Source: Escherichia coli (GTDB lineage Bacteria; Pseudomonadota; Gammaproteobacteria; Enterobacterales; Enterobacteriaceae). Taken from it: a stretch of 64,000 nt of DNA. Below the pieces are notes generated by a model. The model did no database searches, was not told the DNA's origin, and was given only the letters and a program-made list of their open reading frames with translations. Where the stretch lies: assembly GCF_030013205.1 (NCBI RefSeq), contig NZ_CP122648.1; one strand, 5' to 3'. The position numbers were made by a program, and so were the translations under genes. How positions within the stretch are numbered: the stretch's first letter is position 1; each line of letters opens with the position of its first letter. Shown piece by piece: positions 56,725 to 64,000 of the stretch.

Positions 56725-56890
56725 GCTGACCTCATTTCCCCTTAACGCTGGGGTAGCGGAACTGTTTGCTGAGAACACCGTGCGGTGTGTTGATGCAAAC
56801 AAGATTAGCCATGACTAACATATCGGTCAAGTGATTTTGTATGCTATAGCTAACATAATTGATGTGGTAAAAGATAACTCATTGATGATG

Positions 56891-57612: not shown

Positions 57613-57919
57613 ACAGGCTCGTGAGGCTCTGGATGCCTGGATATGTCGACCAGGAATGACACAGGAGCAGGCGACGATATTAATCACTGAAGCATTCTGG
57701 GCTTTGAAAGAGCGCCCGAACATCGATGTTCAGCGTGTCACATATGAAGGTGGCGCGATTGATCAGCGAGCGCTTGGCGTTATCTGGTCATCACCTGACG
57801 GAGAAATACGTCGCTACGACAGTCGCCTAAACATAATCTGTCGCGAGTGCCGGAAGAGCGAAGTTATGCAGCGCATACTGGCTTTCTATCAGGGTAATTT
57901 TCAGGACGTGGCGCAGTGA
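57596..57919 (+). CDS. hypothetical prophage protein (YdfX-like position), Cys-containing
   Basis: 107-aa ORF overlapping the dicC 3' end by 17 nt; CxxC at CRECRK; family not assigned. Confidence 0.5.
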   Translation: MKITPEQAREALDAWICRPGMTQEQATILITEAFWALKERPNIDVQRVTYEGGAIDQRALGVIWSSPDGEIRRYDSRLNIICRECRKSEVMQRILAFYQGNFQDVAQ

Positions 57920-58272
57920 GTGCACCGGCAACCATTCTTGATATGTGCTGTGGCAGCCGCATGTTCTGGTTCGATAAGTCTGACGAACGGGCGATATTCA
58001 GCGATATCAGAAAAGAAGGATACACATTACGCAATGGGAGACGCTTGATTATCAGCCCTGACATTATCGCAGATTTTCGTGCATTATCATTTGCAGACGC
58101 ATCTTTTTCGATGGTTGTATTAGACCCTCCGCATCTTGAGAGTGTTGGTGATAACGCCTGGATGGGAAAGAAATATGGACGGCTGAATAAAGATGCCTGG
58201 CGTGATGATTCGCGACAGAGATTTAAAGAAGCCTTTCGGGGGTTGAGGCCGCACGGCGTTCTGATTTTTTAA
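57916..58272 (+). pseudogene. short SAM-methyltransferase-like ORF, probably truncated
   Basis: 118-codon ORF starting at GTG overlapping the upstream stop; motif-I-like ILDMCCGS and DPPH (DPPY-like); ends at a T6 run. Confidence 0.4.
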
Positions 58273-58631
58273 TGGAATGAAACGCAAATACCGGTAAGCC
58301 AGATTCTGGCACTGACAGACAGAAAACCTGTTATCTGTCAACGAACAGGGAAAAAACGATAAAACCCACTGGATTATTTTTATGAAAGAGGCATCCAGTG
58401 AGTAGATTCGTAAGGCTACAGATACGTATATCTGAATAATTAAATTCAGTTCTGTAAATAAAATTTAATCCTTAACCGGATGGATTTCTGCACCCTCAGA
58501 ACATCAGGAGGCCGCCCGAAAGGGCGGTAGTGAAATGCGAATGTTCAAAATTATTATTGAAACGGGAATAGCTGGTGGAGATTTTGAGGATGTATTCGAA
58601 GTGGACGATGACGCAACACCTGAGGAAATTC

Positions 58632-58886
58632 ATGACGGAGCATAAGAAATTTTCTTTAACTACTGCAATTACTCATACCACGAAATAAAAGACGATGAGG
58701 AAGAACAAAGTGGCTGATTTTTGTTCAGCTAAATATAACATCAGTTTTGAAGAGCGGGATGAACTATTAATGGACTATGGTGAGTTACGCGGTGGAAGTG
58801 CTGCTGATGTCGAATCCTAGCGTGATGACTATGAAGCGGGAAAAACTCCGGTCGAAGCATATTGTGATGAGTGGGGCGATGAATGA
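58632..58886 (+). pseudogene. reading frame interrupted by in-frame TAA and TAG, otherwise open
   Basis: Hand translation MTEHKKFSLTTAITHTTK*KTMRKNKVADFCSAKYNISFEERDELLMDYGELRGGSAADVES*RDDYEAGKTPVEAYCDEWGDE*. Confidence 0.3.
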
Positions 58887-59170
58887 GCGAGATTAATTAT
58901 CAGGAAGGGCATGAAACGGCGGGGCAAGCAAAACCAGTGGCATGGCGATATCGCTACGTGAAAAAAGGCGTTACGGACTTTCAGGGGAAGTAGTGGTCTG
59001 GTGACTGGAAATATGTACCGAAAAAAGAGGATTGTAACGACAGGCCGAACTATCAAATTCAGGCCTTATTCACTGCCTCACCAGTCCCAGTTACATCAGA
59101 AGAACTGGTTAAAGCTGTGCACTTTTATGAACAACTAAAACGCGAAAATCCACCAACATCCGGCAACTAG
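58883..59170 (+). pseudogene. reading frame interrupted by one in-frame TAG, start overlaps previous stop (ATGA)
   Basis: Hand translation MSEINYQEGHETAGQAKPVAWRYRYVKKGVTDFQGK*WSGDWKYVPKKEDCNDRPNYQIQALFTASPVPVTSEELVKAVHFYEQLKRENPPTSGN*. Confidence 0.3.
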
Positions 59171-59424
59171 ATTAATGGATTAACTATGTCGGTTAAACGA
59201 CCAGCCAACTGAAAAAGCGGAAACCTGATTACAGGTTGCCAGATAAGGCAATGAGCTACCTGGCGCGGAACGGACTGATAAGTATGGGGAATGTTTTACG
59301 ATGAACCTTTAGACTAAAGAGTTTGTAACGCTATGTAAGTGATTTTTTCTGGTTTAGATATTTATATGTCCGGCCAAATTGAGGTGTGTTTAAATGTAAT
59401 TGCACATTGATTGTAGGAGGAATA

Positions 59425-59604
59425 ATGAAAAACGCATTGCAGTTTTTGTTTGTTGCGTTCTGGTTGTTCGCATCATGTATGCCCATCATCTTCACAGCAA
59501 GGTATATGGAAAAAGTTGATGTTTTGATATTAATATTTGGATATATAAATGCCCTTTTTTTAGGGGTGTTCATGGCGGTCATGTGCATTGAATACTGGCG
59601 GTAA
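59425..59604 (+). CDS. 59-aa hydrophobic (two predicted TM) small protein
   Basis: MKNALQFLFVAFWLFASCMPIIFTARYMEKVDVLILIFGYINALFLGVFMAVMCIEYWR; GGAGG about 6 nt upstream of the ATG. Confidence 0.45.
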   Translation: MKNALQFLFVAFWLFASCMPIIFTARYMEKVDVLILIFGYINALFLGVFMAVMCIEYWR

Positions 59605-59938
59605 ATACAGCGAACTCCATTGGTTTAGTTGGATATTTACTGTGCTGGACAAAAACGGTTTGCGGGGAAATCTTAGTTAAGTAGAATGACTGCGGGTGCT
59701 TGAGGCTATCTGCCTCGGGCATGGACACCAACGGCAGATAGAGAAAAGCCCCAGTTAACATTACGCGTCCTGCAAGACGCTTAACATTAATCTGAGGCCA
59801 ATTTCATGCTAGACACATGTAGGTTAGCCTCTTACGTGCCGAAAGGCACGGAGAAGCAGGCTATTGTTAACACCAAGTTGTAATGTCCCCTTTGAACCAT
59901 TCTAAAATGTCCCCAGACAATTCTCTGGGGGATTTTTC

Positions 59939-61252
59939 ATGATCAAAGAGACTGTTACGATGAGTCATAAGGAACTCCACCGACTTCAGATTATTCAGGA
60001 ACAAGCTGCGGCACGCATTGGCATTTCTATTCGGCAGGTTAAACGTCTGGTGCAACGGTATAGAAATGAAGGGCCTTCTGGTCTGGTTTCCCACCGACGT
60101 GGAAAGCGTCCTAATAATTCCTTTTCTACTGAATTCAGAGCAACAGTAATTTCACTCCTCAAAGGCCGTTACGCTGATTTTGGACCTACGTTTGCGTGCG
60201 AAAAATTGCGCGAGATACACGGTTTATCTTTATCCGTTGAAACTCTCAGAAAGTGGATGATAGAAGAGGGGTTATGGCGTGAACGCCGTCGTAAAATTGC
60301 CCGTATATATCAACGCCGCATGCGACGACCATCTTACGGTGAACTGATCCAGATTGATGGCTCACCTCATGACTGGTTTGAAAATCGAGGCCCCAGATGT
60401 ACACTGATCGTTTTCATTGATGATGCCACCAGTGCGTTGATGGCGTTGCGTTTTGTGCCTGCTGAAACAACCCGGGCTTACATGGAAACCCTCCGGGGTT
60501 ACCTTAATGATCATGGCGTACCGCTCGCTCTCTACTCTGATAGACACAGTATATTCAGGGTAAATAACCCAGAGCGGGAAGGTGAGCTGACCCAGTTCAC
60601 TCGTGCGATAAAGACACTGGGCATCGAGCCAATCCATGCCAACAGCCCGCAGGCAAAAGGGCGGGTAGAGCGCGCCAATCAGACACTACAGGACAGGCTG
60701 GTCAAAGAAATGCGGCTTCAGAATATCAGTGATATTGAAACAGCAAATGCATGGTTGCCGACCTTTATTGAAGCCTATAACAACCGGTTCGCTACGTCGC
60801 CTCGTACTACTGATAATGCTCATCTTGATGTGCACCATTCTGAAGAGGAACTGGGTTATATCTTCAGCCTACAGGCGAAGCGCGTTCTGTCTAAAAATCT
60901 CACTTTCCAGTACAAAAGCAGTGCGTTTCAGGTACGCAGTGAGGGCCGGGGATATCGACTTAGGCATTCGGTTGTTACTGTATGCGAGAACTTTGACGGT
61001 GAAATTAACGTTCTGTATGACGGGAAAGCGCTGGGCTGGGAAAAGTATGTTGATGGCCCGGAGCCTATACCACTGGATGATGAAAAGAGTGTCCATGAAC
61101 GAGTGGATAATGCCCGTATTGATTTACGCTCAAAATACTATGTTAAACCTAAAGCTGACCATCCCTGGCTTACGCGCCGAACGCAAAGTCATCAGCAAGT
61201 TAAGCCCCCGAAGTTACCTAAAAAGAAGCCTGATCCCGATAAAAAAGATTGA
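59939..61252 (+). CDS. DDE transposase with N-terminal HTH and rve-type integrase core (IS481/ISNCY-like), Lys-rich tail
   Basis: 437-aa ORF; HTH at IGISIRQVKRLVQRY; acidic residues in DGSPHDW / FIDDATS / RVERANQ context; family assigned from memory only. Confidence 0.65.
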   Translation: MIKETVTMSHKELHRLQIIQEQAAARIGISIRQVKRLVQRYRNEGPSGLVSHRRGKRPNNSFSTEFRATVISLLKGRYADFGPTFACEKLREIHGLSLSVETLRKWMIEEGLWRERRRKIARIYQRRMRRPSYGELIQIDGSPHDWFENRGPRCTLIVFIDDATSALMALRFVPAETTRAYMETLRGYLNDHGVPLALYSDRHSIFRVNNPEREGELTQFTRAIKTLGIEPIHANSPQAKGRVERANQTLQDRLVKEMRLQNISDIETANAWLPTFIEAYNNRFATSPRTTDNAHLDVHHSEEELGYIFSLQAKRVLSKNLTFQYKSSAFQVRSEGRGYRLRHSVVTVCENFDGEINVLYDGKALGWEKYVDGPEPIPLDDEKSVHERVDNARIDLRSKYYVKPKADHPWLTRRTQSHQQVKPPKLPKKKPDPDKKD

Positions 61253-61586
61253 AACCAAGATCGATTCGGTTGAGTGCATATCCATTCATAGGGTAGATTC
61301 TTAAGTCGCGTTTCTGGTGTTCATTTTCGGGTGGTTTGTTACTTGTTTTACCGGGGATATGCCAGAAACGCGCTGAGTCAGTCTGGGCGGTGCGCGTAAT
61401 GAGGCGTTATGGTAAATAGCCTATGCTAATGTCCGCTAAGAGCAAGAAGCGGAAGTTGGCAGTTTTGTGGACTGTCCCCACAAAAGTGACTACAGAAATA
61501 GTTGCAATTCATAATTGATCATGGGTTGTCAGTTAAACTCGTGGCGATTTAAATAGACTAATTGGGAGTGCGTCCATTACTTATAT

Positions 61587-61635
61587 CTTGTAATGTTAAC
61601 TATCAGAAATTCTTGTAATGTTAACTATCAGAAAT
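61587..61635. repeat. Two tandem copies of a 24-bp unit CTTGTAATGTTAACTATCAGAAAT separated by 1 nt
   Basis: Read directly: 61587-61610 and 61612-61635 are identical; located 3' of flxA. Confidence 0.9.
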
Positions 61636-61713
61636 GATACAAAGATAATATGTCTTTAAAGAAAAGGCTGATGGCGAAAAGTGGCCCGATGAGGGCCACA
61701 ATACGGCTGTCAC

Positions 61714-62046
61714 TTAGACGTAAATATCAATGGTGCCAGCGGTATTTGTATCGTCTTTTTTCTCTTCTTTTTTATCAGGCTGAACTGTCGCGTCTTCATT
61801 CTTTTTCTCTGCCTGCTGCCTTAACAACTGCTCCAGTTGAGCCCAGAGGCTTTCAATTTGCTTCTGTACCAATGCAGCCATTTCTTTTTTCTGCTGTGTC
61901 GTCATCCCCTCTTCCGATGAGATTTTCCCAAGCTTTTCAGTCAGCACCTGAATTTGTCTTGTGATTTTGGCTATTTCTGATGTTCCTTCCGGGGCGGAGT
62001 TGTTTGAAATAACGGTTGAGGTATTTCCCTGAATTGTGACAGACAT
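61714..62046 (-). CDS. flxA: FlxA (FliA-regulated Qin prophage protein)
   Basis: 110-aa ORF MSVTIQGNTSTVISNN... recognised as FlxA; AGGAG upstream. Confidence 0.88.
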   Translation of the reverse strand: MSVTIQGNTSTVISNNSAPEGTSEIAKITRQIQVLTEKLGKISSEEGMTTQQKKEMAALVQKQIESLWAQLEQLLRQQAEKKNEDATVQPDKKEEKKDDTNTAGTIDIYV

Positions 62047-62069
62047 AGATTTCTCCTTTTAAAAAAGCA

Positions 62070-62096
62070 CTATCGGCATGCACAAAAAAATCTTTA
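62070..62096 (-). promoter_or_regulatory. sigma-28 (FliA) type promoter for flxA
   Basis: Minus strand TAAAGATT-N11-GCCGATAG versus consensus TAAAGTTT-N11-GCCGATAA, about 25-50 nt upstream of the flxA ATG. Confidence 0.75.
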
Positions 62097-62248
62097 ATCG
62101 TATTTCTTGTGTCATTAATTGTTTGATGTTCAGATTGTTTTCCTCGCGGGCTGGCGCGCCTCAGAAAGTAAAGCTTGTTGACAGGGGTAAACGTTCGGCA
62201 ATAATTTTCTGCCGCATGCGGGTGTTGCATAAAACGTGTTACGTTCCT

Positions 62249-62554
62249 TTATCGACAGGTCAGGTCACCGCTCACCCGCCGACGAGAAAGCAACACTGAC
62301 ATGCTAAAGCAAAAAATAGATGAATAAGTTGAGTTGTGCATATGTAGCCTGACCGTCACAAAGTATATGGTGTCTGTACCAGTAAGATGATGGCCGGACT
62401 CTTTAAAAACGAGCTGACCTGCACAATACAGGATGGACTTAGCAATGGCTGCTCCTGGCACAAAGCGGACAGTGATCACCGTTCTTACGACTACTTTCTG
62501 ACTTCCTTCGTGACTTGCCCTAAGCATGTTGTAGTGCGATACTTGTAATGACAT
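62249..62554 (-). CDS. ydfV: Qin prophage protein YdfV
   Basis: 101-aa ORF between flxA and relB; identity by position and length, low compositional confidence. Confidence 0.5.
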   Translation of the reverse strand: MSLQVSHYNMLRASHEGSQKVVVRTVITVRFVPGAAIAKSILYCAGQLVFKESGHHLTGTDTIYFVTVRLHMHNSTYSSIFCFSMSVLLSRRRVSGDLTCR

Positions 62555-62566
62555 TTGTAATTACAA
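62543..62566. promoter_or_regulatory. relBE operator (relO) dyad
   Basis: TTGTAATGACATTTGTAATTACAA, containing the 12-bp palindrome TTGTAATTACAA, 13 nt upstream of the relB ATG. Confidence 0.7.
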
Positions 62567-62578
62567 GAGGTGTAAGAC

Positions 62579-62818
62579 ATGGGTAGCATTAACCTGCGTA
62601 TTGACGATGAACTTAAAGCGCGTTCTTACGCCGCGCTTGAAAAAATGGGTGTAACTCCTTCTGAAGCGCTTCGTCTCATGCTCGAGTATATCGCTGACAA
62701 TGAACGCTTGCCGTTCAAACAGACACTCCTGAGTGATGAAGATGCTGAACTTGTGGAGATAGTGAAAGAACGGCTTCGTAATCCTAAGCCAGTACGTGTG
62801 ACGCTGGATGAACTCTGA
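62579..62818 (+). CDS. relB: antitoxin RelB
   Basis: 79-aa ORF recognised as RelB. Confidence 0.95.
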   Translation: MGSINLRIDDELKARSYAALEKMGVTPSEALRLMLEYIADNERLPFKQTLLSDEDAELVEIVKERLRNPKPVRVTLDEL

Positions 62819-63105
62819 TGGCGTATTTTCTGGATTTTGACGAGCGGGCACTAAAGGAATGGCGAAAGCTGGGCTCGACGGTACGTGAACAGTTGAAAAA
62901 GAAGCTGGTTGAAGTACTTGAGTCACCCCGGATTGAAGCAAACAAGCTCCGTGGTATGCCTGATTGTTACAAGATTAAGCTCCGGTCTTCAGGCTATCGC
63001 CTTGTATACCAGGTTATAGACGAGAAAGTTGTCGTTTTCGTGATTTCTGTTGGGAAAAGAGAACGCTCGGAAGTATATAGCGAGGCGGTCAAACGCATTC
63101 TCTGA
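62818..63105 (+). CDS. relE: mRNA interferase toxin RelE
   Basis: 95-aa ORF overlapping the relB stop by 1 nt (TGATG); recognised as RelE. Confidence 0.95.
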   Translation: MAYFLDFDERALKEWRKLGSTVREQLKKKLVEVLESPRIEANKLRGMPDCYKIKLRSSGYRLVYQVIDEKVVVFVISVGKRERSEVYSEAVKRIL

Positions 63106-63176
63106 ACCAAAGCATGACATCTCTGTTTCGCACCGAAGGTGACACTTCTGCTTTGCGTTGACAGGAGAAGCAGGCT

Positions 63177-63332
63177 ATGAAGCAGCAAAAGGCGATGTTA
63201 ATCGCCCTGATCGTCATCTGTTTAACCGTCATAGTGACGGCACTGGTAACGAGGAAAGACCTCTGCGAGGTACGAATCCGAACCGGCCAGACGGAGGTCG
63301 CTGTCTTCACAGCTTACGAACCTGAGGAGTAA
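63177..63332 (+). CDS. hokD: Hok-family membrane toxin HokD (RelF)
   Basis: Hand-translated 51-aa ORF MKQQKAMLIALIVICLTVIVTALVTRKDLCEVRIRTGQTEVAVFTAYEPEE with AGGAG upstream; below ORF-track cutoff. Confidence 0.85.
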   Translation: MKQQKAMLIALIVICLTVIVTALVTRKDLCEVRIRTGQTEVAVFTAYEPEE

Positions 63333-63401
63333 GAGACCCGGCGGGGGAGAAATCCCTCGCCACCTCTGATGTGGCAGGCATCCTCAACGCACCCGCACTT
63401 A

Positions 63402-63430
63402 ACCCGCTTCGGCGGGTTTTTGTTTTTATT
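63402..63430 (+). terminator. Rho-independent terminator after hokD
   Basis: ACCCGC-TTCG-GCGGGT followed by TTTTTGTTTTTATTTT. Confidence 0.7.
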
Positions 63431-63548
63431 TTCAACGCGTTTGAAGTTCTGGACGGTGCCGGAATAGAATCAAAAATACTTAAGTAGCGCGCAGGGATAA
63501 GAGGGATGGTCCCTTAAAGGGGAGAGCTAATTATCCGGAAGGATTCTG

Positions 63549-63800
63549 ATGATGAACATCGAAGAACTGCGTAAAATTTTTTGTGAAGATGGCCTCTATG
63601 CTGTGTGCGTTGAAAATGGAAATCTTGTTAGTCATTACCGCATTATGTGTTTGCGAAAGAATGGGGCTGCGTTAATTAATTTTGTGGATGCTCGGGTCAC
63701 GGACGGATTTATCTTGCGCGAAGGTGAGTTTGTCACTTCATTACAGGCATTGAAAGAGATCGGAATAAAAGCTGGCTTTTCTGCTTTTTCAGGAGAATAA
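63549..63800 (+). CDS. rem: Qin prophage protein Rem
   Basis: 83-aa ORF MMNIEELRKIFCEDGLYAVC... at the position of rem after hokD. Confidence 0.7.
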   Translation: MMNIEELRKIFCEDGLYAVCVENGNLVSHYRIMCLRKNGAALINFVDARVTDGFILREGEFVTSLQALKEIGIKAGFSAFSGE

Positions 63801-63866
63801 ACTCATCTACAATCTTGCGCGGGGCTGAACTCCCGCTGAGTAACACCGTGCCACCGGAGAAAACCG

Positions 63867-64000
63867 ATGGCACGCAACGCAAAATATTACAATTCTGATA
63901 ATTCGCCCGTTCTTGCCTGCACGCACGGGCGGTATTCTCACGCATTCAAGTCTGAATGGTTCCAGCACCCTCCATGCACTGCAGAACAGGCCGAATGGCT
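63867..64000 (+). CDS. ydfU: 5' part of YdfU-like prophage protein (continues beyond window)
   Basis: ATG at 63867 opens frame MARNAKYYNSDNSPVLACTHGRYSHAFKSEWFQHPPCTAEQAEW... running to the window edge; call by position only. Confidence 0.4.
   Translation, partial: MARNAKYYNSDNSPVLACTHGRYSHAFKSEWFQHPPCTAEQAEW

What the first reader, a model, noticed from the sequence alone, without database searches (positions are those of the whole stretch)
61587..61635. Exact 24-bp tandem duplication 3' of flxA
CTTGTAATGTTAACTATCAGAAAT occurs twice, 1 nt apart. Two units are too few for a CRISPR or satellite call. The unit contains TTGTAATG and GTTAAC, and TTGTAATG also occurs at the left transposase flank (59878-59885). 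It could be a duplicated protein-binding site, a recombination scar or a target-site-like duplication.
Basis: seen in the sequence. Interest (0 to 1): 0.35.

Follow-up and report, generated by a model that had tools for sequence, protein, structure and literature searches.

The report
Young 25-bp tandem duplication beside flxA
A 25-base stretch of non-coding DNA just past the flxA gene in a defunct E. coli prophage has been copied once, head to tail, in a small minority of strains; it looks like an ordinary, probably neutral mutation rather than a working genetic element.

Summary
The repeat is real. TCTTGTAATGTTAACTATCAGAAAT occurs twice, abutting and identical, at 61586-61635, so it is a 25-bp unit rather than 24 bp plus 1.

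It lies in a non-coding spacer of the cryptic Qin prophage. An ISEsa1 insertion sequence (IS1202 family) is on its left. The terminator of flxA (minus strand) is on its right.

About 1190 complete E. coli genomes carry this locus. About 1160 of them, including K-12, have one copy with identical flanks. So do an Enterobacter plasmid, phage PhiR42_1 and 52 of 52 IMG/VR contigs. Only 29 genomes have two copies. They fall into two backgrounds: the ATCC 8739/LD39-1 group and pig O139:H1 ETEC, the source of this window.

The duplication is therefore derived, young and linked to one Qin haplotype. The unit is not dispersed, not coding and not an Rfam RNA, and it folds no better than shuffled sequence.

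The TTGTAATG link to the transposase flank is at chance level and depends on a SNP private to this window. Resemblances to a RelB operator hexad and a XerD arm also failed testing.

Best reading: a neutral tandem-duplication polymorphism. A transposase-type staggered-cut footprint is not excluded, because the junction has no microhomology and 25 bp lies in the IS1202-family TSD range. Interest is low.

The parts
61586..61610 (.). Copy 1 of the 25-bp unit TCTTGTAATGTTAACTATCAGAAAT
   Evidence: Either copy can be treated as the extra one; the K-12 alignment shows a single 25-column gap.
61611..61635 (.). Copy 2 of the 25-bp unit, identical to copy 1 and directly abutting it
61677..61699 (-). flxA intrinsic-terminator-like hairpin GUGGCCC-UCAUC-GGGCCAC followed by UUUU. 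It lies between the flxA stop codon and the repeat.
   Evidence: RNA fold (-19.5 kcal/mol, z -2.6). The simple terminator scan did not call it.
61714..62046 (-). flxA (FlxA-like protein, 110 aa)
   Evidence: ORF; Pfam PF14282 E=2.3e-14; RefSeq annotation
61458..61585 (.). Non-coding spacer between the ISEsa1 right end and the repeat. It includes an IS3-family IRR-like remnant at 61531-61552.
   Evidence: Homology to ISEsa1 copies in other contexts stops at 61443-61457. Resemblance to the IS3-family end is seen in L013.
59865..61457 (+). ISEsa1 (IS1202 family, ISNCY) copy. The transposase ORF is 59939-61252 (437 aa, with a 27-bp deletion relative to plasmid copies). The left end is placed at 59865 from flank comparison. 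The right end is uncertain, between 61443 and 61457.
   Evidence: family properties from PMC10132070
59694..59865 (+). sok/hok 5' region, truncated at the hok start codon by ISEsa1. It contains AGTTAACATTAC (59753-59764), the reverse complement of 12 nt of the unit.
   Evidence: Rfam RF01794, 104 bits, E=1e-23; 12-nt inverted match I10/I11

Best explanation
The feature is a recent spontaneous 25-bp tandem duplication (an indel polymorphism) in a non-coding spacer of the cryptic lambdoid prophage Qin. It lies between the right end of an ISEsa1 insertion sequence and the transcription terminator of flxA. The ancestral state is one copy. One extra copy arose in the Qin haplotype that keeps the full-length ISEsa1. 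It has since been inherited clonally, and has probably moved with the Qin segment by recombination into a second chromosomal background. It has no detectable function and is most likely selectively neutral. Shown: the one-copy state is ancestral and dominant, the flanks are identical, the sequence is non-coding, and no known RNA, operator or Xer site is present. Inferred: the duplication arose by replication misalignment or unequal sister-strand exchange, or by fill-in of a staggered break, and it is neutral.
For: K-12 MG1655 differs from the window over 241 nt only by one 25-column gap. Of 1190 complete E. coli genomes with the locus, only 29 contain the copy-copy junction 45-mer. Every other row inspected spans 125 nt instead of 150. 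An Enterobacter plasmid (L005), phage PhiR42_1 and 52 of 52 IMG/VR contigs carry one copy with the same flanks. No locus examined has three copies. Single-copy genomes with the same full-length ISEsa1 haplotype are otherwise identical over 2251 nt (98.8% identity = the 25-nt gap). The 3.8 kb to the right has only 5 SNP columns among 9 genomes, and none separates one-copy from two-copy alleles. All two-copy loci examined derive from the full-length ISEsa1 haplotype. Carriers fall into two backgrounds, the ATCC 8739/LD39-1 group (core flank 99.95% alike) and pig O139:H1 ETEC (17 genomes with a 100% identical 24-kb core). Their adjacent core genes differ by 1.5-1.8%, while the Qin segment is 99.94% identical. 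The repeat has no annotated feature and no Rfam match. Its folding is not better than shuffles (z -0.8 to -2.0). The promoter-like hits are at the chance rate (2 found vs 1.6 expected). Read directly, the unit carries stop codons in five of six frames.
Against: The junction has zero microhomology (A|TCTTG...GAAAT|TCTTG...GAAAT|G), which is not the classic signature of slippage between short direct repeats. The allele sits in two chromosomal backgrounds 1.5-1.8% apart, so recurrent origin at a hotspot cannot be excluded. Neutrality is inferred, not measured. The locus is so conserved everywhere that sequence constraint on the unit cannot be assessed.
Confidence: 0.8

Rival explanations
1. Transposase-type footprint. 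The 25-bp duplication was made by staggered cleavage 25 bp apart and fill-in, as in target-site duplication, by an IS1202-family transposase. This could be the adjacent ISEsa1 or a relative that inserted here. The element was then lost, or the event aborted, leaving the two copies abutting.
For: The junction has no microhomology and the boundaries are sharp. 25 bp lies inside the unusually long 16-28 bp TSD range of the IS1202 subgroup (PMC10132070). An IS1202-family element with an open 437-aa transposase ORF ends only about 130 bp away. All two-copy alleles come from the haplotype that keeps the full-length transposase. The left boundary of the unit is also an insertion point for IS600 in strain 96_1414P, so the site is accessible to transposases.
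Against: ISEsa1 itself is reported to make no detectable TSD. No element lies between the copies. 1191 of 1193 matching records carry the region uninterrupted. Of the two exceptions, the one examined is an IS600 with a 3-bp TSD in a single-copy allele; the other was not seen. Clean loss of an IS leaving both TSD copies intact is not an established outcome in E. coli (own knowledge). Hundreds of genomes with the same full-length ISEsa1 have one copy.
Confidence: 0.08
2. Functional duplication of a protein-binding site. The unit carries a site, for example a RelB hexad (CTTGTAATG is shared with the relBE operator 930 bp away) or a pseudo-end for the ISEsa1 transposase. Doubling it changes regulation or DNA transactions and was selected.
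For: CTTGTAATG occurs exactly three times in the window: twice in the repeat and once in relO at 62542. TTGTAA fits the RelB hexad [A/T]TGT[A/C]A (PMC2812701). The unit shares TGTAATGT with the ISEsa1 left-end motif TGTAATGTCCCC. That motif is itself repeated 24 bp further in, as TAAAATGTCCCC at 59903, against 25-bp spacing here.
Against: relO needs four hexads in two abutting 12-bp half-sites and tolerates no spacing. Each unit has only one good hexad; the second position reads TTAACA on the other strand. A 9-mer is expected 0.5 times by chance in 128 kb. TTGTAATGT gives effectively 2 independent hits against 0.67 expected. The CCCC core of the IS motif is absent from the unit, and the orientation is the same as the IS left end, not inverted. 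97.6% of carriers do well with one copy. There is no sign of selection: the allele is rare and confined to two clonal groups.
Confidence: 0.05
3. A dif-like Xer recombination site or other site-specific recombination target, duplicated by a recombination event. IS1202-family elements of the ISAjo2 group target dif-like sites.
For: TAATGTTAACT in the unit matches the E. coli XerD arm TTATGTTAAAT at 9 of 11 positions. A small inverted repeat, CATTAC-9 nt-GTAATG, spans the left boundary.
Against: XerD-arm matches with up to 2 mismatches occur 27 times in the window against 22 expected. By my own alignment to the sequence, the would-be XerC arm matches 3 of 11 positions. The inverted-repeat spacing is 9 nt, not 6. 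ISEsa1 belongs to the subgroup with no dif targeting.
Confidence: 0.01
4. Assembly or sequencing artefact.
For: Short perfect tandem repeats can be mis-called in some assemblies.
Against: The same junction is present in 29 complete genomes from many laboratories, including three separately deposited records named ATCC 8739, an NCTC strain and 17 pig isolates. The copy number is consistent within each clonal group.
Confidence: 0.01

Closest known systems
Short tandem-duplication indel polymorphisms (two-allele VNTR-like loci) produced by replication misalignment or unequal sister-strand exchange in bacterial intergenic DNA
   Same: A perfect head-to-tail copy of a short non-coding segment. Copy number varies between strains (1 or 2). 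Flanks are identical. No coding or structural role was detected.
   Different: There is no microhomology at the junction, which many slippage duplications show. Only two alleles were seen (no 3-copy or other-phase alleles in the loci inspected), so it does not behave as a hypervariable VNTR.
Long target-site duplications (16-28 bp) of the IS1202 subgroup of the IS1202 family (Harmer and Hall 2023, PMC10132070)
   Same: The length of 25 bp falls in the range. The boundaries are sharp without microhomology. An IS1202-family element lies about 130 bp away.
   Different: A TSD flanks an inserted element, whereas here the copies abut with nothing between them. The neighbouring ISEsa1 belongs to the subgroup with no detectable TSD, and the repeat is not at either of its ends.
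relO, the RelB2-RelE operator of relBE (Overgaard et al. 2009, PMC2812701)
   Same: Shares the 9-mer CTTGTAATG, including one hexad TTGTAA. It lies in the same prophage, 930 bp away.
   Different: relO has four hexads on both strands in two abutting 12-bp half-sites. The unit has one hexad, and the two units place the hexads 25 bp apart. The 9-mer match is compatible with chance.

Membership tests
CRISPR array | Three or more direct repeats separated by unique spacers of similar length | tested here: not met
   Two copies only, directly abutting with no spacer
Target-site duplication of a transposable element | The two copies flank an inserted element | tested here: not met
   The copies abut. 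1191 of 1193 E. coli records carry the region uninterrupted. Of the two exceptions, the one examined has an IS600 with a 3-bp TSD (TCT) in a single-copy allele; the other was not seen.
Target-site duplication of a transposable element | The length equals the TSD made by the candidate element (neighbouring ISEsa1) | tested here: not met
   ISEsa1 is listed with no detectable TSD (PMC10132070). In three different right-flank contexts, no 25-bp direct repeat flanks the IS.
Target-site duplication of a transposable element | Sharp boundaries without microhomology (staggered cut and fill-in) | tested here: met
   A|T at the left boundary and T|G at the right, exactly 2.00 copies. This is compatible with, but not specific to, a staggered-cut origin.
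Tandem-repeat (VNTR-type) copy-number polymorphism | Head-to-tail copies whose number differs between otherwise identical alleles | tested here: met
   One copy in about 1160 genomes and two copies in 29, with identical flanks
Tandem-repeat (VNTR-type) copy-number polymorphism | Multiple alleles or recurrent change (hypervariability) | tested here: inconclusive
   Only 1-copy and 2-copy alleles were seen in 18 annotated-record loci, 59 IMG/VR loci and 120 listed rows. The allele occurs in two chromosomal backgrounds, which could mean transfer or recurrence.
Slippage-type duplication between short direct repeats | Microhomology of a few nt at the duplication endpoints | tested here: not met
   0 nt of microhomology
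RelB operator (relO-like) | Four hexads [A/T]TGT[A/C]A, two per strand, in two abutting 12-bp half-sites | tested here: not met
   One hexad (TTGTAA) per unit. The partner position reads TTAACA on the other strand. The units are 25 bp apart.
dif-like Xer site | 11-bp XerC arm, 6-bp spacer and 11-bp XerD arm | tested here: not met
   The XerD-like arm matches 9 of 11 but such matches occur at chance frequency (27 vs 22 expected). The XerC arm matches 3 of 11 by my own alignment to the sequence.
Known structured RNA (Rfam) | Match to a covariance model | tested here: not met
   No hit at 61458-61713 at E up to 1. The nearest hit is sok at 59694-59865.
Dispersed repeat, MITE or protein-binding motif family | Further copies elsewhere with different flanks | tested here: not met
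   There are no other copies in the window with up to 3 mismatches. All 52 IMG/VR hits and all E. coli hits inspected lie at the same locus with the same flanks.

The most novel reading that the evidence does not exclude
The 25-bp duplication is a clean footprint of an IS1202-family transposition event: a staggered 25-bp target cut and fill-in by the adjacent ISEsa1 or a relative, with the element lost or the reaction aborted. That would give the first hint of the target-cut geometry of the 'no-TSD' ISEsa1 subgroup, and would show that such transposases can leave element-free tandem duplications in bacterial genomes.
Probability: 0.06. Interest if true: 0.45.

Novelty: already known. Interest (0 to 1): 0.07.

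Why it matters
It matters little. It is a strain-level indel in junk DNA of a cryptic prophage. Its practical uses are modest. It is a convenient 25-bp PCR-size marker for the ATCC 8739/LD39-1 group and the pig O139:H1 ETEC lineage. It is also a small piece of evidence that the Qin segment has moved between E. coli backgrounds. Only the unlikely footprint reading would add something new, to transposon biology.

Tried and rejected
**Motif link to the transposase flank.**
- TTGTAATG is at chance frequency: 5 found vs 2.7 expected.
- The 9-mer TTGTAATGT gives effectively 2 independent hits vs 0.67 expected.
- The first T at 59878 is a SNP private to this window; it is C in 53 other copies.

**12-nt inverted match between the unit and the sok region.**
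- 59753-59764 matches 61590-61601 as a reverse complement.
- About 0.14 such matches are expected in this 2.1-kb region (my own estimate).
- The match is absent from the Enterobacter plasmid context, which has the same right side. I treat it as chance.

**RelB operator.** One hexad per unit, against the four abutting hexads required.

**dif/Xer site.** XerD-arm-like matches occur at chance frequency.

**Promoter.** The scan finds TTAACT-17-GATAAT at 61621-61649, but scan hits are at the chance rate, and this site also exists in the one-copy allele.

**Secondary structure.** DNA folds of the one-copy and two-copy versions are not significant.

**Rfam.** No match at the repeat.

**Coding potential.** No ORF of 60 aa or more uses the repeat. 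The 30-aa minus-strand ORF at 61621-61713 runs through the flxA terminator.

**Terminal inverted repeat of ISEsa1 reaching the repeat.** No convincing IRR was found anywhere in 61400-61660; the best was 12 of 24.

**One-copy vs two-copy diagnostic SNPs.** I looked for them to date the event and found none.

**Insertion between two copies in any genome.** The one candidate seen, strain 96_1414P, turned out to be an IS600 in a single-copy allele.

Full report
**Observation**

The sequence at 61586-61635 is two perfect, directly abutting copies of TCTTGTAATGTTAACTATCAGAAAT.
None of 100 shuffles gave two matches.
- Tandem Repeats Finder reports period 25, 2.0 copies, 100% matches and score 100. 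The repeat finder gives the same 25-nt family.
- The '24 bp, 1 nt apart' of the finding is therefore a 25-bp unit.
- The base before the array (A) differs from the unit's last base (T), and the base after it (G) differs from its first (T). The array is exactly two copies, with no microhomology at the junction.

**Where it is**

The window comes from E. coli. Positions 1-50,000 are core genes from rsxC to ynfE. A 24-kb core segment (positions 20000-44000) is 100% identical to pig ETEC/O139:H1 genomes such as ETEC4067.

The finding lies in the cryptic lambdoid prophage Qin. The local order is as follows.
- A sok/hok 5' region at 59694-59865 (Rfam sok, 104 bits, E=1e-23).
- An ISEsa1 insertion sequence of the IS1202 family. 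Its transposase ORF is 59939-61252, with HTH and rve domains.
- A non-coding spacer that contains the repeat.
- flxA on the minus strand at 62046-61714 (Pfam FlxA).
- ydfV, relBE, hokD, rem, ydfU and ydfT.

The repeat begins 79 nt past the flxA stop codon. It lies beyond a GUGGCCC/GGGCCAC hairpin followed by UUUU at 61677-61699, which looks like the flxA terminator. The repeat is at least 130 nt to the right of the point (61443-61457) where ISEsa1 copies in other contexts stop matching the window.

**One copy or two in relatives**

- K-12 MG1655 differs from the window over 241 nt only by a single 25-column gap.
- A 150-nt probe finds the locus in 1190 of 5426 complete E. coli genomes. Nearly all listed rows span 125 nt, meaning one copy.
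- A 45-nt probe across the copy-copy junction cannot seed on a one-copy allele. It hits only 29 genomes.
- Those 29 are three records named ATCC 8739; KCTC 2571 and B-3008, which have a similar genome size; LD39-1, NCTC9066, 30COLEC, LZHX12, 2018-05-2CC, PSJ-12 and 23CRST024; and 17 pig ETEC/O139:H1 isolates.
- An Enterobacter plasmid with the same ISEsa1-flxA arrangement has one copy. So does phage PhiR42_1.
- All 52 IMG/VR contigs that contain the 25-mer have one copy, with the same left and right flanks.
- No locus inspected has three copies.

One copy is therefore the ancestral and dominant state, and the second copy is derived. The unit is not a dispersed repeat.

**Age and spread**

- Genomes with the same full-length ISEsa1 haplotype but one copy are otherwise identical over 2251 nt. 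The 98.8% identity equals the 25-nt gap.
- In the 3.8 kb to the right, nine genomes show only five SNP columns, and none separates one-copy from two-copy alleles.
- Every two-copy locus examined derives from the full-length-ISEsa1 Qin haplotype. Two of them carry later rearrangements.
- Carriers fall into two chromosomal backgrounds. LD39-1 and ATCC 8739 are 99.95% alike in the adjacent core.
- The pig lineage differs from LD39-1 and ATCC 8739 by 1.8% and 1.5% in the same core genes. Yet its Qin segment is 99.94% identical to theirs.
- The closest core relative of the pig lineage, CFSAN018748, has a different prophage at this site.

The simplest reading is a single duplication event that was later carried with the Qin segment into a second background by recombination. 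Two independent events cannot be excluded.

**Tests for function**

- The repeat has no annotated feature in any genome and no Rfam match.
- No ORF of note uses it.
- Single-strand folding of the one-copy and two-copy versions is not better than shuffles (z -1.3, -0.8 and -2.0).
- The promoter scan finds TTAACT-17-GATAAT at 61621-61649. The number of such hits equals the shuffle expectation, and the site is also present in the one-copy allele.
- The first T of that flank motif is a SNP private to this window; 53 other copies have C.
- CTTGTAATG is shared with the relBE operator relO at 62542. But relO works through four hexads [A/T]TGT[A/C]A in two abutting half-sites with no spacing tolerated (PMC2812701), and each unit offers one hexad.
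- IS1202-family elements of the ISAjo2 group target dif-like sites (PMC10132070), so I checked for a Xer site. The unit matches the XerD arm at 9 of 11 positions. Such matches occur 27 times in the window against 22 expected, and the XerC side does not match.

**How it arose**

The origin cannot be settled from sequence alone.
- The absence of microhomology is unusual for slippage between short repeats. It would fit fill-in of a 25-nt staggered break.
- The IS1202 subgroup makes TSDs of 16-28 bp, and an IS1202-family element with an open transposase ORF lies about 130 bp away.
- Against a transposase origin, ISEsa1 itself is listed with no TSD and nothing lies between the copies.
- The only insertion found at this spot in another strain is an IS600 with a 3-bp TSD (TCT), exactly at the unit's left boundary, in a one-copy allele.
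- Hundreds of genomes with the same ISEsa1 have one copy.

I put about 0.8 on an ordinary, functionless tandem-duplication mutation. I put about 0.08 on a transposase-type footprint, about 0.05 on a selected binding-site duplication, and about 0.01 each on a Xer site and an artefact.

**Verdict**

It is an ordinary indel polymorphism in sequences already in public genomes, and its interest is low.

Noticed in passing
window 59694-59880; loci L003, L004, L005, L015/L033, L020, L061, L069: ISEsa1 sits immediately after a sok/hok 5' region, with the junction at the hok start codon (GGCTAT|TGTTAAC here, GGCCAT|TGTTAAC in L005). Most of the nine distinct left flanks seen are hok/sok regions about 10% diverged from one another, while the IS body is 98-99.6% identical. 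This suggests ISEsa1 may insert specifically at hok start regions. All contexts share TGTTAACACCAAGC before TGTAATGTCCCC, so the true left terminus is probably 59865 (5'-TGT). The published survey found no TSD and no target for ISEsa1.
   Followed up: partly
window 61443-61457 and left flank 59850-59864: The 14 nt at the ISEsa1 right boundary are similar across three different contexts: AAGAAGCGGAAGTT, GAGAAGCGGACGTT and GAAAAGCAGGCGCT. They loosely resemble the left flank GGAGAAGCAGGCTAT. This may be an imperfect direct repeat or a target preference. The exact right end of the IS remains undefined, and no convincing terminal inverted repeat was found.
   Followed up: partly
window 59939-61252: The ISEsa1 transposase ORF is open (437 aa) but has a 27-bp (9-codon) deletion near 59987-60000 relative to the 446-aa plasmid copies. 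PGAP annotates the gene as a pseudogene plus a separate 'ydfW'. K-12's ydfW is thus the C-terminal remnant of this transposase.
   Followed up: partly
window 61531-61552: CAGTTAAACTCGTGGCGATTTA resembles the right terminal repeat of an IS3-family element (TGTTAAACCCGTGGCGATTCA). In strain 2018-05-2CC that element replaces ISEsa1, with its end at window 61500. It is possibly a solo IS end or a target mimic that attracts IS3-family insertions.
   Followed up: partly
L015 (strain 96_1414P), equivalent to window 61586-61588: IS600 is inserted with a 3-bp TSD (TCT) exactly at the left boundary of the 25-bp unit, in a single-copy allele. This coincides with the duplication endpoint.
   Followed up: yes
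window 59878: T in the window but C in all 53 other ISEsa1 copies examined, including the otherwise closest O139:H1 genome. The other two differences from that genome are at 56814 and 58241.
   Followed up: yes
window 57780-64000 versus 1-45821: The Qin segment is 99.94% identical between this pig-ETEC background and LD39-1/ATCC 8739, whose adjacent core genes differ by 1.8% and 1.5%. K-12 is equally close in the right flank. Qin appears much younger than the strains that carry it, or has spread by recombination.
   Followed up: partly
window 62542-62567: The second tandem-repeat hit in the region (period 12, TTGTAATGACAT/TTGTAATTACA) is the known relBE operator relO, upstream of relB at 62579.
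   Followed up: yes
window 63341-63422: A weak, sub-threshold Rfam match to the isrK Hfq-binding sRNA (25 bits, E=0.018, gathering score 50), between hokD and rem.
   Followed up: no
L010 (NZ_OW968288.1) and relatives LAU-OXA and MINF_8D: In L010, IS1414 (IS256 family) is inserted at about window 61675-61686, at the foot of the flxA terminator hairpin, in a single-copy allele. LAU-OXA and MINF_8D list the same IS1414 feature and span but were not inspected.
   Followed up: partly
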